Shown here one piece after another: positions 1 to 57,344 of a stretch of 64,000 nucleotides of DNA. Position numbers and translations under genes: made by a program. The number at the start of each line of letters is the position of its first letter. Positions within the stretch are counted from its first letter, which is position 1. The DNA is from Methanosarcina sp. Its GTDB lineage: Archaea; Halobacteriota; Methanosarcinia; Methanosarcinales; Methanosarcinaceae. The stretch is from the NCBI RefSeq assembly GCF_049706645.1, contig NZ_JBNAKP010000019.1, positions 153 to 64,152 of the forward strand. Reading direction: 5' to 3'. The notes below the pieces were generated by a model that did not search any database, was not told where the DNA came from, and saw only the letters and a program-made list of their open reading frames with translations.

Positions 1-81
1 AAACATATTCATTAGAAAAACAGTACTTATTAAAAACAGCAATCGTAAATCCAAAATACTTTTTTACCTCAATGGCTTTTG

Positions 82-568: not shown

Positions 569-584
569 TATATCACCCTTCTTT

Positions 585-1661: not shown

Positions 1662-1683
1662 GTGATTCTCCTCTCAAATTGCT

Positions 1684-2497: not shown

Positions 2498-2511
2498 AAG
2501 TCTCCCTCTTT

Positions 2512-3381
2512 TTACACTAATTTGACTCCACTAAAGTACAGGAATGCTATATTTACAATGGAAATTATCAGTAAAACTGTCCAGCTTAGTTTGAGCATCC
2601 ATTGCCAGTACACTCTTGCAGTAATGTTGTCTATAAGAGTTACAAAGAAGAAAGCAGCCGCAGATATAAGCACACCTATCAATGGGTTTACCGCCCAGAA
2701 TACGAATATTAGTCCTGTTAAAAACACGTATTCATAGAAGTGCCCAATCTCAATGCCGGCCATACCTGGCCCTGAATATTCGGTCGTCATACCTTTAACC
2801 AGTTCCTGATGACCGTGGTGAGAGGTTGAATAGTCAAAGGGTGACTTCTTCAATTTTATATTCAGAACAACTATCATTGCTATGAATATAAGAGGCGTGT
2901 ACATCAGCAGAGGGGTTGATGCGTCTACCAGCGCAGATAATTTGAAAGTTCCGGTAAGCAAGTATATGGCAAGAGCATATAATATTAAAATTGGTTCATA
3001 AGCCAGTATAGCCATAATTTCCCTTGAACTTCCTATCCTGGCGTATGGTGAACCAGTACTCATTCCACCTACTATGAGAGCTATCGAAGATACCGTGTAT
3101 ACAAATATTATCATCAGAATATCTGCTTTAAGCACTAACATCAAGAGGCTCAAAATTAAGAAGGCTACGTACACTACCACGTAGAAGTTTTGAGACGGGT
3201 TTACAACCAGATTGTCTTTACTGAGGAGCTTCCTGACATCATAGTATGGCTGCAAAAGGGGAGGACCGACTCTTCCCTGCAATCTTGCAGTAATTTTTCT
3301 GTCAATTCCTGCGTATAGGCAGCCAATCACAGGAGCTACAAATATAACAAGAACAGCTAATAAAATATCGTTCATGTTCAT
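2512..3381 (-). CDS. echB: Ech hydrogenase membrane subunit B (NuoH-like)
   Basis: GIDRKITARLQGRVGPPLLQPYYD and PFD...ELVKG...EYSG motifs; hydrophobic; start overlaps the echA stop. Confidence 0.95.
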   Translation of the reverse strand: MNMNDILLAVLVIFVAPVIGCLYAGIDRKITARLQGRVGPPLLQPYYDVRKLLSKDNLVVNPSQNFYVVVYVAFLILSLLMLVLKADILMIIFVYTVSSIALIVGGMSTGSPYARIGSSREIMAILAYEPILILYALAIYLLTGTFKLSALVDASTPLLMYTPLIFIAMIVVLNIKLKKSPFDYSTSHHGHQELVKGMTTEYSGPGMAGIEIGHFYEYVFLTGLIFVFWAVNPLIGVLISAAAFFFVTLIDNITARVYWQWMLKLSWTVLLIISIVNIAFLYFSGVKLV

Positions 3382-5291
3382 AATACTCCTCCTGCTAATG
3401 CAATTACAATGAGAATTATCGAAATTGCATATCCGAGTACTGTAAGTTTACTTTCTCCAAAGGTATTTTGAAGGTAGATGTTAGAGACACTGCTCTTATC
3501 GTAACTGCAAGTTCCGTTTCTGAACATTAATCCGTCTTTTTCCATGTTGTTTTCTCCACACATATAATAGTTAACTCTGCGAGGAGTGAACATGTTTCTG
3601 GTAGCGAAATAGATCAGAATAGCCAGAGCAAGCGCTCCGAAGATTGCTGCATAAGCAAATGCCCCTATTTCAGAGGTAAATTGTCCAGCCTGTCCTGAGA
3701 TCTCAGGAGCAGCTTGAAGCAGAATTTCAACCTGAGGTTTAATGAAGTAATTGTATATTGAAAATACAAATATACTTGTAACTATAATCGCCAGTCCAAG
3801 GAATGACAGTGGGAAATACGTTTCCGGTTTTTTGTGGTGAACTGCATTCTTATCCATGCTGGATGATAAGATTGTTCCCATCCACTTAGCATAGTAAACT
3901 GTAGTGAGTGCACTTCCAAGTATAAGGAATACTATCACAATAGGGTTGCTTGAAGCAGCTTCCATTGACACCCATTTTGTAAGCAATACCCCAAAAGGAG
4001 GTAAGAGCATGGATACCATTCCCAGAGCTGCAAGACTGGTAAGAAGAGGAGCCTTATTTATTAATCCTGACATGTCCTCAATATCTCTGCTTCCTATTGT
4101 GTGTTCAATTTCACCTGTGCACAGGAACAGAAGAGCTTTTGATATGGCGTGGAACAGAATAAGCATAATCGCAGCAGCTACAGCCAGAGGCGTACCAATT
4201 CCAGCGCTTGCGATAATTAAACCCAGATTTGCAATTGTAGAGTAAGCAAGTACTCTCTTGGCATTCCTCTGGGATAAGGCTAAAGCCGAGCACATAACGA
4301 AGGTAAAGCTACCGTAAACTGCAATAGCTGTTCCGAGACTCGTGCCCGCAAAAGCCGGTACTAGTTTGACGACTAAAAACACACCTGCATTTACCATTGT
4401 GCTTGAGTGCAGTAAGGCCGAAACCGGGGTTGGAGCTACCATTGCGCCTAAGAGCCAGCTCTGGAAAGGCATCTGAGCAGATTTCGCAAAGCCTCCTATA
4501 CAGAGTAAAGCAACAGGAAGGGCTACAGCGGCCATTGTTGTTGCATCAGTTCCAGCGTAAGTTCCGATTCCAGAAAGAGTACCTATATCATATGTTGCGA
4601 GCAGAATTATGCCTATAGATAGAGCAATTCCACCAACCAGGTTTAAAGCCAGAGCCCTGAAACCGTTATTTATTCCTTCTTCATCCATGTTGTATGAGAT
4701 TAACACGAACGAACAAAGAGTTGTTAGTTCCCAGAAAAGAAACAGCCATCCCAGCGTGTCAGCCATTACCAGACCATTCATGGCTGCCAGGAAGAAACTC
4801 ATCGTAAAGTAGAAAGTTTTTTGTCTGTTTAAATGCCTGTGTTCTTCATATTCATCCATATAACCGGTTGCGAATAATATAATCGCAGTACCGACTATAT
4901 TAACAATTAATATCATGATCTGAGAAAATTGATCAATATTAAAAGAAGCACCTTCGGCATGTGGAAGACTGGTAAAAGTGTAAGCAAATACAGCTGCTGA
5001 AATTATTCCTAGCCCGAGTGTAGGCCAGTTTTTATATTTTGCTGACACACCAAGAATAAATAATATCACCAGTACTTCGAGTATAAGGACAATATTTTCT
5101 AGCATTGCGAAATTTGGTTCGCCAATCTCAACTACTCCAGTACCATCCAGTACTAAACTAACTGATAAAGCTACCCCAAGTATGAAAAAAGCCCAAGCCA
5201 GGTACTTGTATAGCGATTTGGGAAGGGCTACGAATAAAAACGAAAACAGTACGGGTACTGCAATTAATAGCATAACAGTATTTTCTATCAT
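3378..5291 (-). CDS. echA: Ech hydrogenase membrane subunit A (NuoL/MrpA antiporter-like)
   Basis: FWELTT, KSAQMPFQSWLLGAMVAPTPVSALLHSSTMV, LAYSTI motifs; 637 aa, multi-TM. Confidence 0.95.
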   Translation of the reverse strand: MIENTVMLLIAVPVLFSFLFVALPKSLYKYLAWAFFILGVALSVSLVLDGTGVVEIGEPNFAMLENIVLILEVLVILFILGVSAKYKNWPTLGLGIISAAVFAYTFTSLPHAEGASFNIDQFSQIMILIVNIVGTAIILFATGYMDEYEEHRHLNRQKTFYFTMSFFLAAMNGLVMADTLGWLFLFWELTTLCSFVLISYNMDEEGINNGFRALALNLVGGIALSIGIILLATYDIGTLSGIGTYAGTDATTMAAVALPVALLCIGGFAKSAQMPFQSWLLGAMVAPTPVSALLHSSTMVNAGVFLVVKLVPAFAGTSLGTAIAVYGSFTFVMCSALALSQRNAKRVLAYSTIANLGLIIASAGIGTPLAVAAAIMLILFHAISKALLFLCTGEIEHTIGSRDIEDMSGLINKAPLLTSLAALGMVSMLLPPFGVLLTKWVSMEAASSNPIVIVFLILGSALTTVYYAKWMGTILSSSMDKNAVHHKKPETYFPLSFLGLAIIVTSIFVFSIYNYFIKPQVEILLQAAPEISGQAGQFTSEIGAFAYAAIFGALALAILIYFATRNMFTPRRVNYYMCGENNMEKDGLMFRNGTCSYDKSSVSNIYLQNTFGESKLTVLGYAISIILIVIALAGGVL

Positions 5292-5580
5292 ACAGCGTAT
5301 CCTCCGATCTATAATCCTCCGATCTGTTCATTCTCTGACGTATTGGTGGAATTTATACAGTTGAAAAACAAACCAAGTACATAAGACGTTTTTATAACCC
5401 ATTTTTCATATTCCCGAAAGGTTTTTATATTGATTTCCCAGTTCAACTGCCCAATTCCTGAGTATATAAGAATATGGACTAATAATCCTCAAATATTATA
5501 ATATTCTTATATCAAAATTACAAGAAATAATAATATGCGAATAATGTCGATATAAATTCGACATGTTGCCAATTCTTAAT

Positions 5581-5972
5581 TATAGCAAAGGCATATTTAA
5601 AGATAGTGATTTTCTTTTTACTTTTATATTACTCACAAGAATAATGGACAAAATAGCCCCCAGATATTGTTTTCTTCTTGTTTTATATTTTATAGTTATA
5701 AATACTACTGAATGCTAATTCATACTACCAACTGGTTCCAATATACTACCAAAGTGGTATAAATTAGCATACACAAAGCCCTATTTAAACATAATGGTTT
5801 TAGTTTATTTTTATATTGCTCCTGAGATTCATTTATTGACTAGCCTGCGAATATCACAGTTTTTTAAATTTAAAGACTAAAATAAACAATAAATAATAAT
5901 ATCAAATTACTACAATAATTAATATAACAAAGGGATATTTAAAGAAAGTGATTTTAACTTTATTTTTATAAT
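5581..5972 (-). promoter_or_regulatory. Three copies of a ~50-bp TATA-containing module upstream of echA (5581-5630, ~5769-5817, 5923-5972)
   Basis: Each copy has TTTAAATA on the minus strand (5594-5601, 5782-5789, 5936-5943). Copies 1 and 3 match at 30/33 nt; the middle copy matches copy 1 at 22/27 nt over the core. Confidence 0.65.
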
Positions 5973-20770: not shown

Positions 20771-22351
20771 TTACGCCTGGCTCTCAACTGCACTATCCGG
20801 TTCCGGGTTCAGGAAGCCCGGTTCGATGCCTGGTTCAATGGTTATATCTTCATACTCTTCGGCGTACGGTTCGCCTGGAGCCATTTCTTTTACTGCTGCT
20901 TTTTCTGTTCTCTCTGATTTTTTCTCTAACTTTTTCTTTGATTCTATTGCTTCGGGTTTCAGAATCCGTTGCCTGACAGCTTTCCAGACAGGGCTGTTGA
21001 TAGAGGCGTCCACCTCCTTCGCGAAGTTTACAAAGCCGTCAAAACCTTCGAACTCCACCACCCTGTCGTGGTTGAAATCACAGAAAGCAACACCCAGCTT
21101 GTATGCGATAAATCTCTCTTTTACCCCTGCAACCATGAGGTCGGCTTTCTGTTTCACGAGCAATTCGGCAAGCTCAAGAGGATTTGCATCATCCACAATA
21201 ACTGTGCCGTCCCTTACCGAATAACTGATCTGCTCGTAATCCTCTTTTTTCCCGGTCTGGGTCCCGATAATGACTACTTCCATTTCCAGTTCCGAAAAGC
21301 CTTTGATAAGCGTGAGAGCTTTTGCAGGCCCTCCCATGTAGATGGCGGCCTTTTTTCCCCTGACCCTTTCCCGAACCCCGACGATTTCAGGCATTATGCG
21401 GTTTGTTTCGGTTTCCAGGATTTTTTCGGCTTTTTCTTTCATAGCTTCAGAGCCAAAGTAATCCGCAGTTTTTCGCAGGGCCAGAGAGATATCTTCGATT
21501 CCGAAGAAACTTACGTTTAAATACGGGACCTCAAACTCTTCCTGCATCCATTTTGCAAGATACATCATGGACCCGCTGCACTGGACAAGATTAAGGTCGG
21601 CTTCGGCGGCTCTTGAGATGGATTTTGCAGTCGAGTCCCCTGTCATTGAGACTATAACCTCGATTCCCATTTGCTCAAAGAGAGGCTTTATGAGCCAGAC
21701 GTCTCCGGCCACGTTGAAATCCCCTAAAATGTTAATCTTCGGCTTTATGGTTTCAGTAGGCCTCAGGCTTTTTTTTGCAGTTCCGTCCTCCTGAGGTCTT
21801 TTGATCAGCTTTTTTAAGGCGTCACAGGCAGCCTTGTACCCGTCGGACTTGTTTCCTTTGAAACCTTCGGACTTTACGGGAAGTACCGGGATATTGTGCG
21901 TCTTGCTTGCTGTTTTGCATACGGAATCAAGGTCGTCTCCGATAATTCCTACAATGCATGTGGAATACACGAAGACCACCGGGGGATGGTAAATGCCCAC
22001 CAGTTCGTCGATTGCGTTTGAGAGTTTTTTCTCTCCTCCGAATACGACATCGATCTCTTTCATATCCGTGCTGAAACTGCTGCGGTTCGTTTCAAGCCCG
22101 CTGGATTTTGCACCCCGAATATCCCAGGTATAGCCTGCACAGCCGATAGGGCCGTGAACCAGATGGACGGCATCTGTTACGGGGTTTAAGACAACCCGGG
22201 CTCCCGAATAGACGCATGCCCGCTGGCTGATGGCTCCTGCAAGGGAGTTGTTATCGCAGGCAAGAGGAACTACCTGCCCCTTTTCCTGCTTTCTGGTGAT
22301 GTATGGTTGCCTTTCTTCGAGAGTATCCACTATCCCGGTTTTCTCAATCAT
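20771..22351 (-). CDS. nifE: Nitrogenase FeMo-cofactor scaffold NifE
   Basis: SQRACVYSGAR, HGPIGCAGY, YSTCIVGIIGDD, NLVQCSGS; ATG 22351 is better spaced from the GAGGGG RBS than GTG 22360. Confidence 0.94.
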   Translation of the reverse strand: MIEKTGIVDTLEERQPYITRKQEKGQVVPLACDNNSLAGAISQRACVYSGARVVLNPVTDAVHLVHGPIGCAGYTWDIRGAKSSGLETNRSSFSTDMKEIDVVFGGEKKLSNAIDELVGIYHPPVVFVYSTCIVGIIGDDLDSVCKTASKTHNIPVLPVKSEGFKGNKSDGYKAACDALKKLIKRPQEDGTAKKSLRPTETIKPKINILGDFNVAGDVWLIKPLFEQMGIEVIVSMTGDSTAKSISRAAEADLNLVQCSGSMMYLAKWMQEEFEVPYLNVSFFGIEDISLALRKTADYFGSEAMKEKAEKILETETNRIMPEIVGVRERVRGKKAAIYMGGPAKALTLIKGFSELEMEVVIIGTQTGKKEDYEQISYSVRDGTVIVDDANPLELAELLVKQKADLMVAGVKERFIAYKLGVAFCDFNHDRVVEFEGFDGFVNFAKEVDASINSPVWKAVRQRILKPEAIESKKKLEKKSERTEKAAVKEMAPGEPYAEEYEDITIEPGIEPGFLNPEPDSAVESQA

Positions 22352-22535
22352 CTCTTTCACTCCCCTCTGCTTCTGTTTCCAGGTTTGCAGCGGCGGTTTT
22401 CCATTTCTCCCGTTTTTATGTTATCAGTTTTTAAGTTCTCGGTTTTAACTTCCCGGTTTTGCTTTTAGGTTTAAAACTCCGTATTTTTCAACCTCTGCAT
22501 TCTTCCGGGAATCAGTTATCTTAAGGCCAGGCTCC

Positions 22536-33285: not shown

Positions 33286-33358
33286 CGCCGCTTGCAGGGC
33301 TCGAACCTACGACATTCTGGTTAACAGCCAGACACTCTACCAACTGAGTTAAAGCGGC
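33286..33358 (-). tRNA. tRNA-Asn(GTT), copy 2
   Basis: GCCGCTTTAACTCAGTTGGTAGAG...CTGTTAA...GGTTCGAGCCCTGCAAGCGGCG; full cloverleaf, no encoded CCA. Confidence 0.97.
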
Positions 33359-33433
33359 TCTCTGACGGGAAAGCGGTTCTTGGTCTTACCCTCGAATCTT
33401 CTTATACAAGAGATTCTTTGGATATAAAGTTTA

Positions 33434-33508
33434 TGGGCCTGACCGGATTTGAACCGGTGACCGCTCGGTTATGAGCCGAGCGCTCTAACCTGACTGAGCT
33501 ACAGGCCC
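33434..33508 (-). tRNA. tRNA with CAT anticodon, most likely tRNA-Ile2 (agmatidine)
   Basis: GGGCCTGTAGCTCAGTCAGGTTAGAGCGCTCGGCTCATAACCGAG...GGTTCAAATCC...GGCCCA. The GGGCC acceptor stem and CTCGG/CCGAG anticodon stem resemble archaeal Ile2 rather than Met tRNAs. Confidence 0.9.
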
Positions 33509-33619
33509 TTATTGATTTTATAAAGCTATTAATAGCTTTTAGTATGGCTTTAATAATAAAGTTTTTGCACATGTATTTTTCTATTCCGGAAAGAGTAGTA
33601 AAAAAATGCAAAATTTTTA

Positions 33620-33692
33620 CGCCGCTTGCAGGGCTCGAACCTACGACATTCTGGTTAACAGCCAGACACTCTACCAACTGAGTTAAAGCGGC
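33620..33692 (-). tRNA. tRNA-Asn(GTT), copy 1
   Basis: Sequence identical to 33286-33358. Confidence 0.97.
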
Positions 33693-35268: not shown

Positions 35269-36318
35269 TCAGTGCCCTGCTTTGAGCAGTTTGCATACAT
35301 TTTCTACTTCTGCCCTGAAATTGTCCTGGGTGATGCCATAAAGGCCTGCAAGGTACATGGCGCCGCCAGCTCCTGCGCCTTCCTTGATTGTGCCTGTTTC
35401 GTACCTGTGAAGCCCTTTGAGCTCGGACTTTCCAAATCCGGGATCTGCAACATAAACCACAGGTACACCAAGCGCTCTGGTAAGTTCGGTAAAGTTTGCG
35501 GACTTATCTTCCACAACATACCGGGTAGTGGCAATTGCCAGCTTTTCCGTATCGAAACCCAGGTGTTTGATCAGGGCATACACTGCTGCCATCTGGGTTC
35601 CGCCTGCAAGCACGACATTGACATCGGTATCCTGGAAGCCTGCAACAAGGCCTACAACAGCAGGCATCATCGGGTCTCCCATGCAGGCAATAGCCTTCAT
35701 AGGGTCATCCTTCAGGCAGCCAAAGGTCAGGCCTGAGGCTTTCATGCCTTCTTCGACAACCTGTTTCTTCAGTTCAAGGGGATTTTCATCGGCACTACTG
35801 CTAACATTTCCGTTATATCCAAGGGCCATTAAAACCCCCATCGCGGTTGTTGTGCCGCCTGGAATACTCTCTCCGATAACCACGTGGTCTACATGGTTCC
35901 TGAGCCTTCTGGCGAGAAACTTCGCCCGTTCGTAGATTCCCTGTACATCCCTGACTGCAATCGGTTCCCTGATATCTTCTCCGGGCCTGGCCTTCAGGTC
36001 GATGCACGGGACTTCCGGAGTTACGATAAGGCCGGAATTAATGAAGTGATAGGGAGCGTCCGTGAGCTTCAGTGCCGAACGGGTCATAATTGCAGGAGTT
36101 GGAGTGTCATATGGAGGTGTCATGGGGAGAACGGGCACGCTGATAATATTTCCTGTCTCCATAAGTTCCGCATCTCCTGCAGGCGTATAGTCCGTAAGTT
36201 CAGCCGTTTTTCCTGCGGCTGAAAGTTTCGGGATATGTGCGGTTTTGGTATTGGAAAGCACGCATAAAAACATTGGTCTTCTGGGTTTTCTGGTTACTTC
36301 CGGTTCGATCCAGGCCAT
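35269..36318 (-). CDS. cobT: Nicotinate-nucleotide-dependent phosphoribosyltransferase, archaeal CobT type
   Basis: [48 protein letters not shown]. Confidence 0.9.
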
Positions 36319-42271: not shown

Positions 42272-43390
42272 TCACTCTCTCAGTATAAGGGCACCTGCTA
42301 GGATACAGCCATTTGCTATAAACAGTTTTTCAAAATCCATAAAATCTGTAAAAATCCCTGCAATAATCGGGGCAAGAGAAAGCCCTGCATAGATAGTCGT
42401 GTTAAAAAGCCCCATTACAAGACCCCTGTCAGCATTCATTCTGGCAACAGCCAGGGCAAAACCTACAGTTGCGACCCCGGACCCTCCACCAAGGCTTGAG
42501 AATCCCAACAAAGGATATTTTATTGCAGAGAGGGCACCAAGGACCGAAAATCCTATCCCTATTCGAATTAAGGTTTTCTCCTTTACTTTGAAGTGCCCTG
42601 CAAGCAGAGAGGTAACCATTGCACAGACATAAAGGCTGGAAATCGAGATTCCAAGCTGGGCTTTTGTTATAGTGCCCAGGCTGTAGTCAGGATAGTAGGC
42701 TACAAGCACTCCAATGGCTCCGTTAAGCAGGAAAGAACTGAGCCAGAGCCCTGAGTTGTCACCGCTCAGGAGCTCTTTAATTTCTCTGTAAGGCTTTCTG
42801 AAAAGGCCAGAGCCTTTTAATGAACCCGGTCTTCCTTCGCACTCAGGATGAACCAGTCCTCTGTACCTGGAAAGCAGGTACACGGTCAAAAGGAAAGCGA
42901 TGACTGTAAAGATAAGGATTGCTCCTTTCAGGTAGGTGTCTGCCAGCAACCCTGAGAGAAAGGCTCCTGCTGCCAGGCCGGCATTGAAAAGAAAAGTAAA
43001 TTCCCCTATATAGCGCCCTGGATTACTGAGTTTTGATAATATGGTAAAGGCAGCCGGGAAAAAAGCTCCACAGGCAGAACCTTCTATAAACCTCGCAATC
43101 AAAAGAATCCAGAGGTTTTCGAAGAACAGGATAGTCAACCCTGAAATGGCCGTCAGAACGATACCCAGCCCTATGAACTTCAAATTTCCGAACCTGTCCG
43201 CGAGAATCCCAAAGGGGAGCATTGTTCCCAGGGCTCCGAGGAAATAGGCTGAAAAGAGCAGGCTTGAGGCAAATCCTCCAGAAGAGCTGTTACTCAGGCT
43301 CGCAAGCTCCGGAAGGATAGGGATAACAGCGTTAGAGAGCCCCATTATCGTAAAAGCTGCTCCGTAAATCAAAAGCCTGTGAAGGTTCAT
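42272..43390 (-). CDS. MFS transporter, paralog 2
   Basis: GILADRFGN, ARFIEG; N-terminus clearly homologous to paralog 1 (GLSNA(I/V)IP(V/I)LPELA). Confidence 0.88.
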   Translation of the reverse strand: MNLHRLLIYGAAFTIMGLSNAVIPILPELASLSNSSSGGFASSLLFSAYFLGALGTMLPFGILADRFGNLKFIGLGIVLTAISGLTILFFENLWILLIARFIEGSACGAFFPAAFTILSKLSNPGRYIGEFTFLFNAGLAAGAFLSGLLADTYLKGAILIFTVIAFLLTVYLLSRYRGLVHPECEGRPGSLKGSGLFRKPYREIKELLSGDNSGLWLSSFLLNGAIGVLVAYYPDYSLGTITKAQLGISISSLYVCAMVTSLLAGHFKVKEKTLIRIGIGFSVLGALSAIKYPLLGFSSLGGGSGVATVGFALAVARMNADRGLVMGLFNTTIYAGLSLAPIIAGIFTDFMDFEKLFIANGCILAGALILRE

Positions 43391-43673
43391 AGCACTAAAA
43401 ACCCTTAATTAAGTATATAGTTTCTTGTCGCCATTTCTTGTCGCAGCAGCATTCTGAAACTCGCCTTCGGAAGGCTAAAATGCCTGAAACGAACCTTTAA
43501 AGGCTTCTTCAGCCGTTCGCAGGATTTTTATCTATTGCACAGTTATATAATGCGTACTAAGAAAATTGAATCTGGCTGCCATGCCTGGATTCTTACTATA
43601 TCATGACGCTTTTATTATAATAAATCGGATAGAATGCATAGCTATTTATATAATTAGTTTGAATAGGGGTAAT

Positions 43674-43812
43674 GTGAGTAATGTGAGCGGGAAACTTTTT
43701 TCACATACCATACCCCCCACTCCCCATATGACCCCCCACTCCCCAACCCGCTCACACTACTTCTACTTAACAATCTAATATTTAACAATCGAATTCGTTT
43801 TTTTACTTTTTT
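43674..43812 (+). ncRNA. Candidate intergenic sRNA
   Basis: TTTATATA at 43645-43652; 15-bp stem 43677-43691 / 43747-43761; loop with ACCCCCCACTCCCCA twice; oligo-T tracts from 43797. Confidence 0.4.
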
Positions 43813-44165
43813 AGGCTCTTAGCTCGCTGTTTCTTTATAATTTTCTTTTTATTTCTTTAGAGATTCGCTCGATTTTTTTAGACTTTTAGTTCACTTTTTA
43901 GACTCTCAACTCCCTTTTTACTTCACTGCTGATGAAGAAAGAAGAGATGAAGCAAAAAGATCAAGAAGAGCTTGTTTTGACGAAGATCCTTTTTTACAGG
44001 AACTTACTTTCACAGAAACTCTCCTTCATCCAGAGAAAACTAACCAGCTCACGCTGTTTTGAGTTCGGAGTGACAATTTAAAAAGTAATGATTTAAAAAT
44101 AGAAAATTAGATGAAATTTGAGAAAGGCTCAGGGCTCCTCATGAGATTTTTGGATTTCCCTTTTA

Positions 44166-46181
44166 TCAGAAGAGGCCTCTGCCTATCATAAGGGAAGAGA
44201 AGAGGATTGCTACCATATTTACCACTTTAATCAGGGCGTTAAGGGCAGGTCCGGCAGTGTCCTTGAAAGGATCACCTACGGTATCCCCGATTATTGCAGC
44301 TTTATGAGCTTCAGAGCCTTTTCCTCCGTGCGCTCCGTCTTCAATCAGTTTTTTTGCATTATCCCATGCCCCTCCGCCGTTATCCATCAGGAGGGCAACC
44401 ATAAACCCTACCACTATGAGGCCTATCAGGAGTCCTGCAAGTGCCTTCGGCCCCAGGAGGAAGCCTACCAGCAAAGGCACAAGTATGGCAAGAAAACCTG
44501 GCATTGCCATTTCATGAAGTGCAGCTTTTGTGACTATGTCAACACAGCGCCCGTATTCCGGCTTTGCAGTCCCTTCCATGATTCCGGGGATTTCTCTGAA
44601 CTGCCTTCGGACCTCATTTACGATTTCGAACGCAGCCTTTCCCACTGCGCTCATGGTTACTGCGCTGAATACAAAAGGCAGCAGTGCTCCAAGCAGCAGT
44701 CCTGCAAGCACCACCGGATCATCAAGGTTCAGGGCCTGGTCTCCAAGGTTTACCTTATTCCGGTAGTCCGCAAAAAGAGCAAGTGCACCAAGAGCAGCCG
44801 AGCTTATGGCATATCCTTTGGTAACGGCTTTTGTAGTGTTCCCCACAGCATCCAGGGCATCCGTAACTTTCCTGACCTCGGCTGGAAGTTTTGCCATCTG
44901 GGCGATTCCTCCGGCGTTGTCGGTAATCGGGCCGTAAGAATCCAGAGCAACTATCATGCCTGTAGTTGAGAGCATTGCAACGGCGGCAATAGCAATCCCA
45001 TAGAGACCGGTTTCGGGATCGGCTGCTCCGCCCACTACATAATACGATGCAAGAATTCCGACTACGATTACTACGGTAGGCATAAGCGTACTTTCAAAAC
45101 CTATAGACAGCCCTGAGATGATATTGGTTGCAGCCCCGGTTTCGGAGGAGGATGCAATGTTTTTCACAGGCCTGTATTTTGTAGAAGTATAGTACTCGGT
45201 GATAATAACCATGAGCACCATGATAATAATGCCTATGAGTGTCGCATAATAAAATCTCAGGCTCCCCATCAGGGCATCGGTAATAAAGTAAAATGCAACC
45301 AGGCTGATTGTCGCCGAACCGGCTACACCCTTATAAAGAGCCCGTATAATGCTTCCTTCTTTTCCTAATTTAACAAAAAATATGGATATGATGGATGCAA
45401 AGATCGCGGCTGAACCCAGTATTAGGGGATAAAGGATTGCGTTTTCGTAAATGCCGGTTATAAGGGAGCCGAGCAGCATTGCAGCCAGAGAAGTTACAAC
45501 ATAGGTTTCGAAAAGGTCGGCTCCCATACCTGCGCAGTCTCCGACGTTATCGCCTACGTTGTCGGCGATTACGGCAGGATTTCTCGGGTCGTCTTCAGGA
45601 ATTCCTGCCTCGATCTTACCTACAAGATCCGCGCCAACATCCGCAGCCTTTGTGAAAATTCCTCCGCCTACTCTGGCAAAAAGGCTTATCAGGCTGGCGC
45701 CAAAACCGAACCCTACAACCAGATTCACATCCTTATAGAGAATATAAAATCCGCTTGTCCCGAGCAGTGCAAGCCCTACTACGGCAAGCCCTGTGACCGC
45801 TCCCCCTTGAAATGCAACCGCTAAGGCTTTTTCAAGTCCGCTTGAGGCCGCGTGAGCAGTCCTGACATTTGCTCGAACTGAAACACTCATCCCAATATAG
45901 CCGGCAGCGGCAGAACTGATAGCTCCTGCCAGAAAACCTGCTGCAATTTTAAGTCCGTCATCAAGCAAAAAGAAAATTAAGAGCGCAAGAATGATCGAAA
46001 CTATTGTGATCGTTCTGTATTGACGGTTTAAGTAAGCCCTCGCCCCCTCCTGAATTGCGCCGGCAATTTCCTGCATCCTTTCGTTTCCGGTCTCTTCTTT
46101 GAGGACACTGTTTGCAAAAAACGCAGCGAAGGCCAGACTTATGATGCCTGCTAAAGGGGCGACGAATATTAAACCTTCCAT
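44166..46181 (-). CDS. hppA: Membrane pyrophosphatase, K+-independent H+-pumping type
   Basis: [48 protein letters not shown]; GNTTKA (Lys) determinant. Confidence 0.93.
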
Positions 46182-46764: not shown

Positions 46765-49257
46765 TTATTCTTGATCAGCAGCCGATTCCTTCATTACTTC
46801 TCTGCTGGGATTCTCATTTCGTAGAGGGATTCTCATTCCGTAGAATGAACGCCAGACAAAGAATAGCGCAATCAAAAGGAATATGCCGCCTACATACGGA
46901 GCTATATTTCGGAATGACTCGGAGATAGCTATTTCCATGGCTAAGAGGCCAAACAGGGTAGTGAATTTGATGATCGGATTCAGGGCAACTGATGAAGTAT
47001 CTTTAAATGGATCCCCTACGGTATCACCTACCACTGTTGCTTCGTGTAAAGCTGTGCCTTTTTCCTGAAGGTCTACTTCCACTACCTTTTTGGCATTGTC
47101 CCAGCAACCACCGGCATTTGCCATGAACACGGCCTGGAACAGTCCGAATACTGCAATGGAGATCAGATAGGAGACAAAGAACGCCACGGAGTCTTTCCCG
47201 GCTGTGGGAGCAGAGAGGCAGGAAAACGCCAGAGTAAAGGAGAATATGGCGATAAATATATTGAACATGCCCTGTTGCGCATACTGAGTGCAGATTTTTA
47301 CCACTTCTTTTGACTTTTCAGTGGCTGCTTTCTGGCTGGCTTTTTCATCAAGCTGTATGTTCATCTTGATATATTCAACTGCCCGGTAGGCTCCGGTAGT
47401 TACGGCCTGGGTTGATGCCCCGGTAAACCAGTAAATTACAGAACCGCCTGCTAAAAACCCGAAGATAGTATAGGGATTGAGCAGGGTCAAAATTTCTTCC
47501 GGTTGTACTCCGAGAACGTCCTTAATGACTAGAATCAAAGAGAAGATCATGGTTGTGGCGCCAACTACAGCTGTGCCTATTAAGACCGGTTTGGCTGTGG
47601 CCTTAAAAGTATTTCCTGCTCCGTCGTTTGCTTCCAGATAGTGTTTGGCTTTATCGAAATCCGGTTTGAAATTGAATTCTCTCTGGATCTCCTCCTTTAT
47701 TTTCGGAATGGTTTCTATAAGCGACAGTTCGTAAATGGATTGGGCATTATCCGTTACCGGTCCGTAACTGTCAACTGCTATGGTAACAGGGCCCATGCCC
47801 AGCATCCCGAAGGCCACAAGGCCGAATGCAAATATGGAGGGATATATCATTATCTCGCTCAAACCATACCCGCTGGCATAATAGGCAACGAACATGAGTG
47901 CGAAGAATACCATACCGATCCAGAACGCGCTGAAGTTACCTGCAACCAGTCCGGACAGGATGTTAAGAGATGGGCCTCCTTCGCGGGAAGCTTTGACGAC
48001 CTCGGCTACATGCAGGGAATTCGGGCTGGTAAATACCTTGGTAAATTCGGGAATTAAAGCCGCTCCCAGGGTTCCACAGCTGATTATCACTGAAAGCACC
48101 AGCCAGAGCTTCTGCAACTGGGCAGGTACGTCGGCGGAACCCGGGCCCAGCAGGTAATAGCTTACGGCAAAAGTTACTGCAATGGAGAGAATGGAAGTGA
48201 TCCATACCAGGCTGGTAAGAGGCTGCTCAAAATCAAAATCATCTTTGCTGCCGAATCTTGCCTGGCTGAGTGCCCTGTTGATATAGAAAGATGTTACGGA
48301 GGTAATGATCATGAGTACACGCATGACAAAGATCCAGGTAAGCAGGGTTCCGGTCAGGGCAGGCTGCACAGCCAGAACTATAAAGGAGACGAGGGCGACT
48401 CCGGTTACACCATAGGTTTCAAATCCGTCTGCGGTCGGTCCTACACTGTCACCTGCATTATCTCCGGTGCAGTCGGCAATAACACCTGGATTTCTCGGGT
48501 CGTCTTCTTTTATTCCAAAAACGATTTTCATCAGATCGGAGCCTATATCGGCGATCTTGGTGAATATCCCGCCTGCAATACGTAAGGCGCTGGCTCCAAG
48601 GGATTCTCCTATTGCAAAGCCTATAAAGCTTGCTCCGGCCAATTCTCTGGGAACAAACAGCAATATAATTAACATCATTATTAACTCAACGCAGACCAGA
48701 AGCACGCCTATGCTCATCCCCGCATCGAGAGCGATATTTAACAGTTTCAGGGGTTTCTTTTCCAGGGATGCGAATGCTGTCCTGCTGTTAGCCAGGGTAT
48801 TCATACGAATTCCATACCACGCGACGCTGTAAGAACCCAGTATCCCTAATATAGTCCAGGCCAGGATGAGCAATACCCCGCTAAGAGGCATTTTCTGAAG
48901 GAAGCCAAAGTAAAAGGCTATACAGAAGCCGATAAAAACAAATAATATGCACAGCAGCTTACCCTGCTGGATAAGATAGGTTTTACAGGTCTCGTAAATT
49001 ATGTTGGCCACATCCAGCATGGACTGATGGGCCCTGATTCTTCTCACCCTCGTAAACTGGTAATAACCGAACAGCATGCCTAATACACAGACCACGATAC
49101 CCCAGAGCAGCAAGTTATTTTGCCCCTGGCTTAAATTCGGAATTTTAAGATTCGCTTCACTGGCAGCTGCTATTGCCGGTGTTAACGACAGTATGGCCAG
49201 GCTAAACAGGCCTTCGAGCGTTGCCTTGACCACCCTATTTTTCATTACGATCTCCAT
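46765..49257 (-). CDS. hppA: Membrane pyrophosphatase, long divergent subfamily
   Basis: [55 protein letters not shown]; 830 aa with a signal-like N-terminus. Confidence 0.9.
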   Translation of the reverse strand: MEIVMKNRVVKATLEGLFSLAILSLTPAIAAASEANLKIPNLSQGQNNLLLWGIVVCVLGMLFGYYQFTRVRRIRAHQSMLDVANIIYETCKTYLIQQGKLLCILFVFIGFCIAFYFGFLQKMPLSGVLLILAWTILGILGSYSVAWYGIRMNTLANSRTAFASLEKKPLKLLNIALDAGMSIGVLLVCVELIMMLIILLFVPRELAGASFIGFAIGESLGASALRIAGGIFTKIADIGSDLMKIVFGIKEDDPRNPGVIADCTGDNAGDSVGPTADGFETYGVTGVALVSFIVLAVQPALTGTLLTWIFVMRVLMIITSVTSFYINRALSQARFGSKDDFDFEQPLTSLVWITSILSIAVTFAVSYYLLGPGSADVPAQLQKLWLVLSVIISCGTLGAALIPEFTKVFTSPNSLHVAEVVKASREGGPSLNILSGLVAGNFSAFWIGMVFFALMFVAYYASGYGLSEIMIYPSIFAFGLVAFGMLGMGPVTIAVDSYGPVTDNAQSIYELSLIETIPKIKEEIQREFNFKPDFDKAKHYLEANDGAGNTFKATAKPVLIGTAVVGATTMIFSLILVIKDVLGVQPEEILTLLNPYTIFGFLAGGSVIYWFTGASTQAVTTGAYRAVEYIKMNIQLDEKASQKAATEKSKEVVKICTQYAQQGMFNIFIAIFSFTLAFSCLSAPTAGKDSVAFFVSYLISIAVFGLFQAVFMANAGGCWDNAKKVVEVDLQEKGTALHEATVVGDTVGDPFKDTSSVALNPIIKFTTLFGLLAMEIAISESFRNIAPYVGGIFLLIALFFVWRSFYGMRIPLRNENPSREVMKESAADQE

Positions 49258-50444: not shown

Positions 50445-50557
50445 TACTATAAATTAATTATCATAAAGTGGATTATTATAAATTAAACTATTATACATTA
50501 AACTATTAAAATTAAGTTATTGTAAATTAAATTATTATAAACGAATTTATTATAATG
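50445..50557. repeat. ~15-bp AT-rich tandem repeat upstream of the third hppA
   Basis: TATTATAAATTAAAC-like units at 50445, 50474, 50489, 50504, 50518, 50533 and 50548. Confidence 0.7.
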
Positions 50558-50620
50558 AATACTTCCAGTACTCAGCATCAAAATAACTTGTGTGATATTT
50601 TCCGGAGGACGGTTAAATTT

Positions 50621-52654
50621 ATGGATGTGTTAATCTACCTTGCACCAATATGTGCCCTTATTGGTCTGATTTTTGCAGGTATATCCTATAAAAATGTCCA
50701 AAAAGAAGGCGAAGGTAATGACGTTATCAAAAAAATTACTGCATCAATTCACCATGGCGCCATGGTTTACCTTAACAGGCAATACCGTGCAATCGCTGTT
50801 TTCGTAATTTTATTTTCAATTATAATCGCATCAATCCTTCCAAATGGGATTCTTACGGCATTATGCTTTGTCTTCGGCGCAGTGTTCTCCGCAACAGCCG
50901 GGTATGCAGGGATGCTCACAGCTACCATTGCAAACGGCAGAACAACAAATGCTGCCACCAGGGGGATTGGCCCTGCATTCAGGGTTTCGTTTGCGTCAGG
51001 CACGGTTATGGGGATGAGCGTTGTAGGTCTCGGTCTGCTTGGTTTATCGGCTTCATTTATAATTATTACAAATTATTATACAAGTCTCGATTTTACTACA
51101 GTTATGAATATCGTTGCAGGCTTTTCACTTGGAGCCTCGTCTATTGCTCTTTTTGCCAGAGTAGGTGGCGGAATTTTCACAAAAGCTGCAGATGTCGGGG
51201 CTGACCTTGTAGGCAAGGTAGAAGCCGGGATTCCTGAAGACGACCCGAGAAATCCTGCTGTAATTGCCGACAATGTAGGTGATAACGTCGGAGATATTGC
51301 AGGCATGGGAGCCGATCTCTACGAATCTTATGTCGGTTCTATCGTCGCTACAATGCTTCTTGCAGCATCAACAGCAGCAATGACCTTTCCTGGCATTTCA
51401 GTTGAGAACGCTATTCTGGTTCCACTGCTGATTTCAGCGGTTGGAATTCTTGCATCCGTTGCAGGTACATTTTTTGTCCGTACAAAGAAGACCGAGGCCT
51501 CGGCAATCCATATGGCTTTTAATCTGGGGTTGATTGCTGCAATCGTTCTTACAGTCATTGCCTCATATTTCATTACATCTCAGCTTCTCGGAGAATATGG
51601 ATTGAAGGTCTTCTTTGCAAGTGTTGCGGGGCTTATCTCCGGTTTCCTTATAGGACAGATCACAGAGTACTACACATCGTATGATAGAAAACCGACCCGT
51701 ACAGTTGCAGATTCGTGCTTAACCGGTTCGGCTACAAATATTATCACAGGTTTTGCAAAGGGAATGGAATCCACCCTCTGGCCGGTTATTATCATCAGCG
51801 CTACAATCTATATTTCCTACCTGCTTTCCGGCCTCTACGGCATTGCTATTGCAGCCGTGGGAATGCTTGCAACGCTGGGGATATCACTGTCTGTCGATGC
51901 ATATGGTCCTGTAGCTGACAATGCAGGCGGCATTGCAGAAATGTCTCACCAGAAGAAAGAGGTACGTGAGATTACCGATACTCTTGATGCGGTAGGAAAC
52001 ACGACTGCTGCTATGGGTAAAGGTTTTGCAATCGGTTCGGCAGCGCTCACCGCACTTGCCCTCTTCTCTTCATATGGCATTGCAGTAAATCTCACTGCTA
52101 TCGATGTTATGAACCCTAACGTGTTCATAGGGCTTATCATCGGTGCAATGCTGCCTTTCCTCTTCTCATCAATGACCATCCTGGCCGTCGGAAAAGCCGC
52201 AGGTGAAGTCGTTATGGAAGTGAGGAGACAGTTTAAAGAGATAAAAGGCCTCATGGAAGGCAAAGCTGATCCTGACTACGGCAAGTGTATTGCAATCTCA
52301 ACGCACTCTGCCCTGAAAGAGATGATCGGACCCGGTGTACTCGCAGTTGTTTCGCCCCTTGCCGTCGGGCTTATACTCGGGCCTGGCGCACTTGGAGGAC
52401 TGCTCGCAGGCTCTGTAGTTTCGGGTTTTATGCTCGCAATTACAATGTCTAACGCAGGCGGGTCGTGGGACAATGCGAAGAAATTTATTGAAGCCGGAAA
52501 TTTCGGCGGAAAAGGTTCGGACGCACATAAAGCAGGTGTGACTGGCGATACTGTGGGAGATCCTTTCAAGGATACAGCAGGTCCGGCAATCAACATTCTC
52601 ATAAAGCTTATGAGTATTGTAGCGGTTGTGTTTGCACCTCTGTTTATCGTCTGA
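50621..52654 (+). CDS. hppA: Membrane pyrophosphatase, K+-dependent, probably Na+-pumping
   Basis: [36 protein letters not shown] (Ala and Gly determinants); ATG 50621 behind GGAGGA. Confidence 0.92.
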
Positions 52655-56309: not shown

Positions 56310-57344
56310 TTCTATCCCCTCGACTGGATCTATGTCTAATAGTTACGTTTGACTCCCCACCCTTTACATCGGGGGTCACATACCTTTCAATACTCTGAGT
56401 GGAGTTATGAGATAACTTTCAAAACCTACTAAAGATTTTCATCCGTTATCTTTAATAAGTTGGCACTCTGCCGAACTTAACTATTTCGTACATATTTAAA
56501 CAACATTCTTAAATTGTTTATCAAGTTTAAATATGTCACCCATAAATCTCATATATTCACTCTTTTACTTCGTTTAACATTTGATTCTCAAAGATGAAGG
56601 GTGAGGGACTGCCAAAATGTTTATATATATTAACTTAATTTTTTATCGAAAGTTCTGATTTCCTCAGCAAAGCTCTCCTGATTATGCAAGTCAGGGCAAT
56701 TTTCATATCTCATTTTCTCTATTCTTTTGATGCCATGCCTGACTTCAGGGGCTAACACTGCAAGCCTTTAATTTGTTTTTGATATAACTTTCGACCCGGA
56801 ATTCTTTCAATTTAATGAGACTGTTTATATTATTACTTTTAAGTAGAATTCTCCTCTTAAAAACTGTTTCGGTATTATTCCAAGATTTCGAGGCGCTTGT
56901 TTGATTTTTTTGAGTAATGTCTTCTAAATTAATATAAGTGTTTCTATATTTGTGAATTACAGGCAGTAAACTCCAGGAAGTCTCCTAAACTTTATTTGCT
57001 CAGAAATCTTAGAATTAATTTCTTCAGTGTACTTGCCTTGAACGCACATGTGTAATGAATAACATGCTAAAACCTGGAAAATATTACTAAATTAATAGAA
57101 ATTTGTTAAACCCTTAAAGGTCATTTAAATCCTGAAATATGTGTTATCCCCCATAAAAAGTATGATACAGCCGTAAAAGGCGCTTTAAGCTACAAAAAAC
57201 GAATCAAATTCATAGTAAACCTGTTAAATCCTGGTTGTGTATAACCGAATAAAAAGTGCATTAAATTCATAAGGAGATGTTAAAGCTATAATTCTACCCG
57301 GGATTTTGCGGGAAAGCTTTAAGGCTTCAAAGCCATTTTTTACT

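What the first reader, a model, noticed from the sequence alone, without database searches (positions are those of the whole stretch)
43645..43812. Candidate sRNA: own TATA box, 15-bp closing stem, duplicated C-rich loop motifs, oligo-T end
Seen: TTTATATA at 43645-43652 predicts +1 at about 43674-43676, exactly where a 15-bp stem begins (43677-43691 / 43747-43761, one mismatch). The 55-nt loop has ACCCCCCACTCCCCA twice. Plus-strand T-tracts follow although both flanking genes are on the minus strand. C-rich single-stranded loops typify RBS-targeting sRNAs (established). CACUCCCC complements the nifE RBS (22358-22365) and ACUCCCCA the ftsZ leader (56352-56359); such 8-mers may be chance. The opposite strand has five G-tracts and could form a G-quadruplex.
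Basis: partly seen in the sequence, partly recalled or inferred. Interest (0 to 1): 0.68.

Follow-up and report, generated by a model that had tools for sequence, protein, structure and literature searches.

The report
Abundant conserved Methanosarcina small RNA (sRNA47)
The stretch is a real, separately transcribed small RNA gene: it is the counterpart of sRNA47, catalogued in Methanosarcina mazei, and is nearly invariant across the genus and extremely abundant, but its function is untested and the proposed nifE and ftsZ targets are no better than chance.

Summary
The element is a genuine plus-strand small RNA gene. RNA-seq contigs from related Methanosarcina cover only about 43674-43770. Their 5' ends lie at 43674-43679 and their poly(A)-tailed 3' ends at 43763-43770.

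In 26 Methanosarcina genomes the core (43682-43756) is 99.4% identical to the window. The neighbouring MFS gene is 80% identical and the flanking spacer about 50%.

The sequence matches sRNA047 of M. mazei Gö1 (NC_003901.1:846462-846629, minus strand), in the same gene neighbourhood. Published tables put sRNA047 at about 480,000-700,000 RPKM, unchanged by nitrogen supply. So the object is already catalogued, but I found no functional study of it.

The mature 3' end sits at the base of the stem, not at the T-tracts. Those T-tracts (43798 onward) are probably terminators, since they recur downstream in all relatives.

Targeting of ribosome-binding sites by the two C-rich 15-mers is plausible by analogy (RsaE/RoxS) but unproven. 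A duplex-energy scan of the window showed no excess over shuffled loops.

Rivals are a protein-binding or housekeeping RNA, and a 31-codon reading frame (sORF_070) called from ribosome profiling.

The parts
43614..43622 (-). Invariant ATTATA(A/T)T box, a candidate TATA box for the divergently transcribed MFS gene (inferred).
   Evidence: ATTATA is identical in all 27 aligned Methanosarcina loci while the surrounding spacer diverges.
43628..43665 (+). Conserved promoter block of the small RNA gene, including the TATA box TTTATATA at 43645-43652 and the bases just upstream (BRE position).
   Evidence: Mean identity to the window is 94.3% across 26 loci, against about 50% for spacer further out. 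The TATA centre lies about 26 nt before the observed RNA 5' ends.
43674..43679 (+). Transcription start zone (5' ends of the RNA).
   Evidence: X35 contig depth rises from 16 to 5,600, then 10,650, then 15,170 between 43673 and 43681. The main contig starts at 43678. The M. mazei Ribo-seq/RNA unit sORF_070 starts at the equivalent GTG, window 43674.
43674..43767 (+). Accumulating small RNA, about 90-95 nt, orthologue of M. mazei sRNA047.
   Evidence: X35 depth reaches 37,000 inside and is 0 outside. Poly(A) tails are joined after 43763, 43765 and 43770, which gives the strand. X46 reaches 3,000 over 43697-43765. The sequence matches sRNA047, and the covariance model finds one copy per locus.
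43676..43691 (+). 5' arm of the closing stem: lower GAGUA, unpaired A43681, upper UGUGAGCGGG.
   Evidence: The upper 10 bp are invariant. The lower stem differs between lineages but still pairs.
43692..43746 (+). 55-nt single-stranded, G-poor loop (27 C, 15 A, 12 U, 1 G), essentially invariant in the genus.
   Evidence: No internal pairing is predicted in any of the 24 homologues. Composition is and conservation.
43696..43701 (+). Internal U6 tract in the loop. It could be an Lsm-type binding site, and it is a site of minor premature 3' ends.
   Evidence: Invariant. An X35 contig carries a poly(A) tail joined after 43703. Lsm binding is my inference and was not tested.
43712..43726 (+). C-rich motif copy 1, ACCCCCCACUCCCCA.
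   Evidence: D5.
43731..43745 (+). C-rich motif copy 2, ACCCCCCACUCCCCA.
   Evidence: D5.
43747..43762 (+). 3' arm of the closing stem: CCCGCUCACA, unpaired C43757, UACUU.
43798..43919 (+). Series of six T5-T7 runs. They are probably terminators for the small RNA and shield the convergent pyrophosphatase gene.
   Evidence: Six T5+ runs against one A5+ run within 200 nt, where the window average is 0.64 per 200 nt per strand. All relatives have 1-6 T5+ runs and 0-1 A5+ runs downstream although the sequence is not conserved. The function is inferred.
43722..43749 (-). Canonical G-quadruplex sequence motif on the template strand.
   Evidence: Regex match, one of two in the whole window. Formation was not tested.

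Best explanation
This is the orthologue of Methanosarcina mazei sRNA47 (sRNA047). It is a stand-alone gene with a strong archaeal BRE/TATA promoter.

Transcription starts at about 43674-43678 and probably runs to the T-tracts at 43798 onward. The RNA then accumulates as a species of about 92 nt whose two ends are held in a 15-16-bp stem, with the 3' end at about 43763-43770.

The stem displays a 55-nt loop with almost no G. The loop cannot fold on itself and carries two identical 15-nt C-rich motifs and a U6 tract.

Shown:
- the transcript, its strand and its ends
- very high, nitrogen-independent abundance in M. mazei
- near-total sequence invariance across the genus
- maintenance of the stem

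Inferred: the RNA acts in trans through the exposed loop. The most likely mode is base pairing of the C-rich motifs with G-rich, Shine-Dalgarno-like stretches (GGGGAGUG type) in mRNA leaders, which would change translation or stability. [quoted passage not shown]

I put the identity and the non-coding RNA gene at about 0.97, and the pairing mechanism at about 0.4.
For: **Transcript**
- X35 contig depth is up to 37,000 over 43674-43770 and 0 outside.
- Poly(A) tails after 43763, 43765 and 43770 show the plus strand.
- X46 shows the same body.
- tRNAs in X35 reach only 150-740.

**Identity**
- The supplement of PMC11456600 lists sRNA047 at NC_003901.1:846462-846629 (minus strand). It has the same core sequence and lies between the same pyrophosphatase and MFS genes.
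- Its RNA level is 481,730-698,607 RPKM, with log2FC -0.21 (p 0.53) between nitrogen conditions.
- The numbering agrees with the 2009 catalogue, because sRNA154 sits where PMC3177094 describes it.

**Conservation**
- The core is 99.4% identical, against 79.6% for MFS coding DNA and about 50% for spacer.
- There is one copy per locus.

**Structure**
- z = -4.66 for the plus strand.
- All 24 homologues keep the stem and the open loop.
- Substitutions in L019, L021 and L022 give G-U pairs, which are tolerated only in the plus-strand RNA.

**Mechanism by analogy**
- In RsaE, two duplicated C-rich motifs act independently on G-rich, Shine-Dalgarno-like sites (PMC6158497).
- M. mazei sRNA41 and sRNA154 are reported to occlude ribosome-binding sites (PMC5867862 and PMC6560208).

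**Weak lead**
- Four independent M. mazei leader or intergenic 'sORF' sequences contain a perfect complement of 9-12 nt to the motif. One of them is the ftsZ leader.
Against: - No target is established. The loop's duplex energies against the whole window equal those of 27 dinucleotide shuffles: 325 sites at -18 kcal/mol or below against 322 +/- 50, and best hit -37.3 against a shuffle mean of -32.2 and a shuffle best of -39.7.
- The nifE and ftsZ sites are only 8-mers and are not among the top hits.
- The whole 75-nt core is invariant, not just a short seed. The RNA is also constitutive and roughly 8-12% of mapped reads by my arithmetic from the RPKM values. Both facts fit a housekeeping or protein-bound RNA at least as well as a classical regulator.
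- There is no column-wise covariation. The upper stem never varies. The four 'both-sides' changes come from a spurious 28th row.
- The RNA evidence comes from relatives, because no RNA run exists for this strain. Contig depth is also a poor measure of abundance.
Confidence: 0.45

Rival explanations
1. Housekeeping or protein-binding RNA. The invariant loop (C-rich repeats plus U6) would be a platform that binds or titrates a conserved protein or the translation machinery. Candidates are a poly(C)/KH-type or Lsm-type protein, or factors that recognise the C-rich 3' end of 16S rRNA, which the motif resembles. Pairing with specific mRNAs would not be its main role.
For: - Abundance is extreme and constitutive, 480,000-700,000 RPKM, about ten times induced sRNA154.
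- Depth is about 50-250 times that of tRNAs in X35.
- All 75 core positions are invariant across a genus whose MFS proteins fall to 42-70% identity. That is more than a seed-type regulator needs.
- The RNA is recovered strongly in ribosome-profiling libraries, at 68,000-227,000 RPKM.
- Repeated motifs in an unstructured region are typical of sponge RNAs such as CsrB/RsmZ (my own knowledge).
- No excess of pairing partners was found in the window.
Against: - No partner protein is known or testable here.
- The motif is 15 nt long and exactly duplicated, which is longer than typical protein sites.
- Recovery in Ribo-seq may only reflect abundance and the poor cutting of C-rich RNA by MNase (inference).
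- The resemblance to the 16S 3' end is recalled from memory and was not tested.
Confidence: 0.3
2. Small mRNA or dual-function RNA. The transcript would be a leaderless message for the 31-residue peptide called sORF_070 in M. mazei (VSNVSGKLFSHTIPPTPHMTPHSPTRSHYF), and that peptide would be the active product, or one of them.
For: - DeepRibo called sORF_070 on sRNA047 and manual curation marked it 'yes'.
- The authors propose that many catalogued sRNAs are dual-function (PMC11456600).
- The frame is open in all homologues.
- Two of the few substitutions are synonymous: GGG to GGA in L014-L018 and ACC to ACT in L021.
Against: - The 'ORF' spans exactly the mature RNA, so coverage confined to it says nothing about translation.
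- Translation efficiency is 0.10-0.43. That is in the range of the other low-TE sRNA and asRNA rows of the same table (about 0.03-0.5) and well below the rows with values above 1.
- There is no mass-spectrometry entry in the sRNA047 row.
- The start is a GUG with no Shine-Dalgarno sequence. In the type-B lineages the only start lies inside the stem.
- The N-terminus, C-terminus and stop position differ between lineages.
- L015 (-1) and L027 (+1) are frameshifted, though homopolymer errors in MAG assemblies are possible.
- About 25 codons show almost no third-position change while neighbouring coding DNA is 20% diverged. Selection is therefore on the nucleotides themselves.
Confidence: 0.12
3. 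Mainly a cis-acting or DNA-level element. The strong promoter and transcript would exist to control the neighbours, by shared divergent promoter activity with the MFS gene or by convergent interference with the pyrophosphatase gene. Alternatively the G-rich template strand would form a G-quadruplex that acts on DNA.
For: - Synteny with the MFS and pyrophosphatase genes is kept in every locus and in M. mazei.
- An invariant ATTATA box for the opposite direction lies 30 bp from the TATA box.
- The G-quadruplex motif is one of only two in 64 kb.
- A low-level antisense contig occurs in X35, and an antisense sORF_071 is called in M. mazei.
Against: - A cis role does not need a 75-nt invariant transcribed sequence with a maintained RNA stem.
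- Wobble-compatible substitutions point to selection on the plus-strand RNA.
- A bank of terminators separates the RNA gene from the pyrophosphatase gene.
- A stable G-quadruplex on the template strand would hinder what is one of the most highly transcribed genes.
- Antisense depth is 16, against about 37,000 for the sense strand.
Confidence: 0.05

Closest known systems
sRNA47 / sRNA047 of Methanosarcina mazei Gö1 (catalogue of Jäger et al. 2009; listed in Supplementary Data of PMC11456600)
   Same: - The transcribed core is the same sequence, including the stem, the loop and both C-rich motifs.
- It has the same neighbours, a pyrophosphatase (MM_0701 homologue) and an MFS gene.
- It has the same orientation, convergent with the pyrophosphatase gene.
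- The M. mazei RNA/Ribo-seq unit is 93 nt, and about 92 nt here.
   Different: - It is another species or strain. The sequence after the stem and the distance to the first T-tract differ.
- The Gö1 annotation of 168 nt is wider than the accumulating RNA.
- I found no functional study of sRNA47 in the searchable library.
RsaE / RoxS of Firmicutes (sRNAs with duplicated C-rich motifs)
   Same: It is an independent small RNA with two copies of a C-rich motif in unpaired regions. In RsaE the two motifs act independently on G-rich, Shine-Dalgarno-like mRNA sites (PMC6158497).
   Different: - There is no sequence or Rfam relationship, and the domain of life differs.
- The motifs here are 15 nt and sit in one 55-nt loop closed by a long stem.
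- Expression is constitutive and extremely high rather than stress-regulated.
- Pairing with targets has not been shown.
M. mazei sRNA41 and sRNA154 (characterised archaeal trans-acting sRNAs)
   Same: They come from the same genus and are conserved within Methanosarcina. They are reported to mask ribosome-binding sites through loop sequences (PMC5867862, PMC6560208).
   Different: - They are different genes. sRNA154 lies between MM3337 and MM3338, has an unrelated sequence and is induced only without nitrogen.
- sRNA47 does not respond to nitrogen.
Sponge or sequestering RNAs with repeated single-stranded motifs (CsrB/RsmZ type), and Y RNA-like architecture
   Same: The RNA is abundant, with repeated short motifs displayed in unpaired regions. 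Like a Y RNA, its two ends pair into a long stem that closes a large pyrimidine-rich loop (my own knowledge).
   Different: - No CsrA or Ro-type partner is known for this RNA.
- There is no Rfam match to these families.
- The motif is C-rich rather than GGA.

Membership tests
M. mazei sRNA47 (sRNA047) orthologue group | Sequence identity of the transcribed core to Gö1 sRNA047 | tested here: met
   In alignment A1 the Gö1 row is identical to the window from GGGGTAATGTGAG to CTTCTA.
M. mazei sRNA47 (sRNA047) orthologue group | Same genomic context and orientation | tested here: met
   In Gö1 the order is pyrophosphatase 843903-845918 (+), sRNA047 846462-846629 (-), MFS 846843-847976 (+). The window shows the mirror image.
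M. mazei sRNA47 (sRNA047) orthologue group | Expressed as a discrete small RNA | tested here: met
   Shown in relatives only: X35 and X46 contigs, plus the M. mazei RPKM values. No RNA run exists for this strain.
C-rich-motif sRNAs that target Shine-Dalgarno sites (RsaE/RoxS type) | Two or more C-rich motifs in unpaired regions of an independent transcript | tested here: met
   Two exact 15-mers lie in a loop predicted to be unpaired in all homologues.
C-rich-motif sRNAs that target Shine-Dalgarno sites (RsaE/RoxS type) | Pairing with G-rich ribosome-binding sites of defined mRNAs | tested here: inconclusive
   The 8-mer sites at nifE and ftsZ exist, but there is no excess over shuffled loops. 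Genome-wide and experimental tests were not possible.
C-rich-motif sRNAs that target Shine-Dalgarno sites (RsaE/RoxS type) | Homology to the RsaE/RoxS family | tested here: not met
   No Rfam family reaches its gathering score. The best E-values in the spacer are 0.13-0.42, to unrelated models. The resemblance is therefore functional analogy only.
Small protein-coding RNA (spRNA) or dual-function RNA | Reading frame with conserved start, stop and length | tested here: not met
   The start shifts between the first and fourth codon. The stop position varies, giving 24 to more than 34 codons. L015 and L027 are frameshifted.
Small protein-coding RNA (spRNA) or dual-function RNA | Substitutions biased to synonymous sites relative to neighbouring coding DNA | tested here: inconclusive
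   There are too few substitutions: two synonymous, about three non-synonymous, plus indels. All codon positions are almost invariant.
Small protein-coding RNA (spRNA) or dual-function RNA | Ribosome occupancy above the non-coding background, or detection of the peptide | tested here: not met
   Published translation efficiency is 0.10-0.43, like the other low-TE sRNA and asRNA rows of the table. The proteomics field is empty. These are the authors' data, not a new test.
C/D-box or H/ACA guide RNAs | C (RUGAUGA) and D (CUGA) boxes, or an ACA box with a pseudouridylation pocket and upper stem | tested here: not met
   Reading the sequence shows no UGAUGA or CUGA in 43674-43770. The loop has one G and no upper stem. 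There is no Rfam hit.
G-quadruplex-forming element | Four or more G3+ tracts with loops of 1-7 nt | tested here: met
   Minus strand 43722-43749, GGGTTGGGGAGTGGGGGGTCATATGGGG.
G-quadruplex-forming element | Actual folding and a biological effect | not testable with these tools
   This needs CD or ThT spectroscopy, or polymerase-stop assays.

The most novel reading that the evidence does not exclude
sRNA47 may not be an ordinary condition-specific regulator. It could be a constitutive, genus-wide housekeeping RNA of the translation apparatus. In that reading it is a very abundant decoy resembling the anti-Shine-Dalgarno sequence, and its two exposed C-rich 15-mers continuously titrate G-rich leader elements (GGGGAGUG type) or a factor that reads the C-rich 3' end of 16S rRNA. 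This would set a global threshold for translation initiation in Methanosarcina. Such a class of RNA has not been described in archaea.
Probability: 0.15. Interest if true: 0.75.

Novelty: already known. Interest (0 to 1): 0.42.

Why it matters
Methanosarcina are key methane producers, and only three of the roughly 250 catalogued M. mazei small RNAs have known functions.

This RNA stands out for three reasons:
- It is about ten times more abundant than induced sRNA154.
- It does not respond to nitrogen supply.
- It is more conserved than the proteins around it.

Despite that, no function is reported for it. Showing what its exposed C-rich loop binds would reveal either a global layer of translational control in methanogens or a new housekeeping RNA-protein particle.

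For the genome scan, the case shows that reading for a TATA box, a closing stem and a G-free loop with repeated motifs can recover a genuine archaeal small RNA gene from sequence alone.

Tried and rejected
1. **Rfam.** The whole window at gathering thresholds gave only three tRNAs. The spacer at E up to 10 gave only sub-threshold chance matches.
2. **RNA runs for this strain.** None were found. I used the invariant 83-nt core to find runs from relatives instead. The long, low-depth contigs in X23, X24, X27, X31 and X36 run into the flanks and could be read-through or DNA, so I did not use them for the ends.
3. **Is it sRNA41 or sRNA154?** Rejected. sRNA154 is elsewhere and unrelated, and the element carries number 047 in the same catalogue. 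The papers on sRNA41, sRNA154 and the 2009 catalogue are not held.
4. **Literature search** by sequence strings and by 'sRNA47' found nothing on Methanosarcina.
5. **Target scan.** The first run timed out. The repeat showed no excess over shuffles.
6. **Metagenome scan** with CCCCACTCCCC-N2-12-CCCCACTCCCC was badly chosen.
7. **Viral contigs** contain no copy.
8. **Column-wise covariation.** RNAalifold keeps only the invariant upper stem. The model-fitted alignment did not re-register the shorter lower stem, and its four 'both-sides' changes come from a spurious reverse-strand row. I therefore rely on per-sequence folds.
9. **spRNA23** of the 2025 preprint belongs to a different numbering series and is not related.

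Full report
**Observation**

- TTTATATA lies at 43645-43652.
- A 15-nt inverted repeat lies at 43677-43691 / 43747-43761, with one mismatch and 55 nt between the arms.
- ACCCCCCACTCCCCA occurs exactly twice, at 43712-43726 and 43731-43745. It occurs nowhere else in 64 kb even with two mismatches, against 0.14 expected.

Folded as RNA, the plus strand from 43674 gives the proposed stem (43676-43680 + 43682-43691 with 43747-43756 + 43758-43762) and a completely open loop. The energy is -21.05 kcal/mol against -9.73 +/- 2.43 for shuffles, z = -4.66. The minus strand is unremarkable (z = -1.65). The loop has 27 C and a single G, so it cannot pair with itself.

The flanking genes are an MFS transporter (42272-43390, minus) and a membrane pyrophosphatase (44166-46181, minus). 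No Rfam family matches.

**Conservation**

A protein-guided scan of one genome per species returned 28 loci, all Methanosarcina, with MFS identity from 97% down to 42%. Each complete locus carries one copy of the element upstream of the MFS gene, on the opposite strand. Mean identity to the window, by segment:

| Segment | Coordinates | Mean identity |
|---|---|---|
| Core | 43682-43756 | 99.4% |
| Promoter block | 43628-43665 | 94.3% |
| Start zone | 43666-43681 | 78% |
| MFS coding DNA | 42272-43390 | 79.6% |
| Spacer on either side | 43590-43613 and 43769-43830 | about 50% |

This is selection on the nucleotides of a transcribed unit and its promoter.

**Structure**

The upper 10 bp never vary, so column-wise methods find no covariation. 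The four 'compensatory' cells belong to a spurious reverse-strand row.

The lower stem does differ between lineages, and every one of the 24 distinct homologues still folds into a closing helix with an open loop of 53-57 nt:
- GAGUA-A / C-UACUU in the window type.
- AAGA / (A, C or U)-UCUU in L007, L011, L013, L014-L018, L027 and L028. Here two bases are lost from the 5' arm and one from the 3' arm.
- In L022 the A·C mismatch becomes an A-U pair and a G-C becomes G-U.
- In L019 a new C-G pair extends the helix while a G-C becomes G-U.

The G-U solutions in L019, L021 and L022 would be A·C mismatches in a minus-strand RNA. They therefore point to the plus strand.

**Transcription**

No RNA run holds this strain. 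The invariant 83-nt core did retrieve RNA-seq runs from four coded organisms.

In X35, a library with poly(A)-tailed inserts:
- Contig depth is 0 up to 43657 and 16 up to 43672.
- It then rises to 5,600, 10,650 and 15,170 between 43673 and 43681, and peaks at about 37,000.
- It falls to 7,150 at 43763-43766, to 1,050 at 43767-43770, and to 0 beyond.
- Poly(A) tails are joined after 43763, 43765 and 43770. This gives both the strand and the 3' end.
- A minor species ends after 43703, just past the internal U6.

X46 shows the same body at a depth of up to 3,000. tRNA genes of the window reach only 150-740 in X35.

The oligo-T is not the end of the accumulating RNA. Even so, T5+ runs follow the gene in every relative: the first lies 14-55 nt after the upper stem, and there are 1-6 per 200 nt against 0-1 A-runs. 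The sequence there is not conserved. I infer termination at these tracts followed by trimming back to the stem. The unusually dense series here (six runs, 43798-43919) would protect the convergent pyrophosphatase gene from a very strong promoter.

**Identity**

The supplementary tables of the M. mazei Gö1 ribosome-profiling study (PMC11456600) list sRNA047 at NC_003901.1:846462-846629 (minus strand). Its sequence contains the whole window core. It lies between the pyrophosphatase gene at 843903-845918 and the MFS gene at 846843-847976, which is the mirror image of the window.

The numbering is that of the 2009 catalogue. sRNA154 in the same table lies at 4065321-4065452 and is 132 nt, as described in PMC3177094, and the paper says its sRNAs come from that catalogue. 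So the element is sRNA47, not sRNA41 or sRNA154.

Its RNA level is 662,885 and 481,730 RPKM without nitrogen, and 698,607 and 629,986 RPKM with nitrogen, with log2FC -0.21 and p 0.53. That is about ten times induced sRNA154 (55,314-85,982 RPKM). By my arithmetic from the RPKM definition and the 168-nt feature length, it amounts to about 8-12% of mapped reads.

I found no paper in the library that studies sRNA47.

**Coding or not**

The same study calls a 31-codon GUG-initiated frame, sORF_070, on sRNA047 and curates it as translated. I consider this unlikely to be the main function, for these reasons:
- The frame spans exactly the mature RNA, so 'coverage confined to the ORF' is uninformative.
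- Translation efficiency is 0.10-0.43. That is within the range of the other low-TE sRNA and asRNA rows of the table (about 0.03-0.5), while several sRNA-listed transcripts lie above 1.
- The proteomics field is empty.
- Start, stop and length vary between lineages, and L015 and L027 are frameshifted, with the caveat of homopolymer errors in MAG assemblies.
- Third codon positions are as invariant as the others, although adjacent coding DNA is 20% diverged.
- The study used MNase. MNase cuts C-rich RNA poorly (my own knowledge), so an abundant C-rich RNA would be expected to survive as apparent footprints.

A dual function cannot be excluded.

**Mechanism**

What is shown is a very abundant, constitutive, stem-clamped RNA that presents an invariant unstructured loop. 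The loop carries two identical C-rich 15-mers and a U6 tract.

The most economical reading is action in trans by pairing with G-rich, Shine-Dalgarno-like sequences. [quoted passage not shown] M. mazei sRNA41 and sRNA154 are reported to do it at ribosome-binding sites.

- The total of 8-mer complements in the window is about what is expected: about 85 were seen, and my estimate of the expectation is about 94.
- The loop's duplex energies match those of 27 dinucleotide shuffles.
- Neither site is among the top hits.

A weak positive lead remains. The ftsZ-leader site is also present in M. mazei. Three further M. mazei leader or intergenic 'sORF' sequences carry a perfect complement of 9-12 nt to the motif, within about 25 kb of such sequence. 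G-rich motifs are enriched in leaders anyway.

The invariance of all 75 core positions, the constitutive expression and the sheer abundance fit a housekeeping or protein-titrating RNA about as well. I rate pairing at about 0.4, a protein- or ribosome-bound role at about 0.3, a peptide-centred role at about 0.12, and a cis or DNA-level role at about 0.05.

**Verdict**

The interpretation as an independent small RNA gene is confirmed by transcript data from relatives and by a published catalogue entry. The 3' end and the targets need correcting.

The object is already known as a catalogued RNA, so its novelty is low. Its function is open, and its properties are unusual enough to merit an experiment. 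Viral contigs carry no copy.

Noticed in passing
window 44166-46181 (-), 46765-49257 (-), 50555-52654 (+): There are three membrane-bound pyrophosphatase genes in a row. The 830-residue middle one (best model NF001950) has no counterpart between MM_0700 and MM_0701 in the M. mazei Gö1 gene list, so it looks like an insertion or lineage-specific gene.
   Followed up: partly
window 43798-43919 (+): Six T5-T7 runs sit inside 17-26-nt direct repeats (TTTTTTAGGCTCTTAGCTC-like units) between the convergent small RNA and pyrophosphatase genes. Relatives also have multiple T-runs on this strand although the sequence differs.
   Followed up: partly
window 56340-56390 (-), ftsZ leader: The G-rich site GGGUGGGGAGUC can pair locally with an upstream GACCCCC that resembles the small RNA's own motif. 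The same C-run ... GGGUGGGGAGUG arrangement is in the M. mazei ftsZ leader (sORF_069). A second 9-mer (GGUAUGUGA, 56376-56384) is also complementary to the loop. The fold is not significant (z = +0.69).
   Followed up: partly
M. mazei sRNA023 (sequence in Supplementary Data 9 of PMC11456600), compared with window 43683-43755: sRNA023 has the same design: a closing stem GUGAACGGG/CCCGUUCAC that differs from GUGAGCGGG/CCCGCUCAC by one compensated pair, a long G-poor loop, and a TTTATTTTT tail. It may be a paralogous family of stem-clamped, C/A-rich-loop RNAs. No second member is in the window.
   Followed up: partly
window 43696-43703 (+): The invariant internal U6 tract is followed in X35 by a poly(A)-tailed species ending at 43703. 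This suggests some premature termination about 30 nt into the gene, or an Lsm-type binding site.
   Followed up: no
window 43658-43703 (-): One low-depth contig (16, against about 37,000 for the sense strand) in X35 looks like an antisense RNA ending near 43658-43661. M. mazei tables also list an antisense 'sORF_071' over the G-rich strand.
   Followed up: no
window 43614-43622: An ATTATA box is invariant in all loci, 30 bp from the small RNA's TATA box. It is probably the TATA box of the divergent MFS gene, which would then have a leader of about 200 nt.
   Followed up: no
loci L029-L148 (metagenome contigs): (CCCCACT)n and related heptamer tandem repeats are common in soil, mat and other metagenome contigs of very different G+C content. 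They are unrelated to the small RNA.
   Followed up: no
window 21357-21379 (-): This is the only other canonical G-quadruplex motif in the window (GGGGTTCGGGAAAGGGTCAGGGG). It lies inside the nifE coding region.
   Followed up: no
window 36091-36130 (+): This is the best duplex partner of the loop in the window (-37.3 kcal/mol; GGAGUGUCAUAUGGAGGUG resembles the loop's complement with a deletion). It lies antisense to the gene at 35269-36318 and is within the range of shuffled controls.
   Followed up: no
window 33286-33692 (-): There is a cluster of three tRNA genes. I used it only as a depth yardstick for the RNA runs.
   Followed up: no
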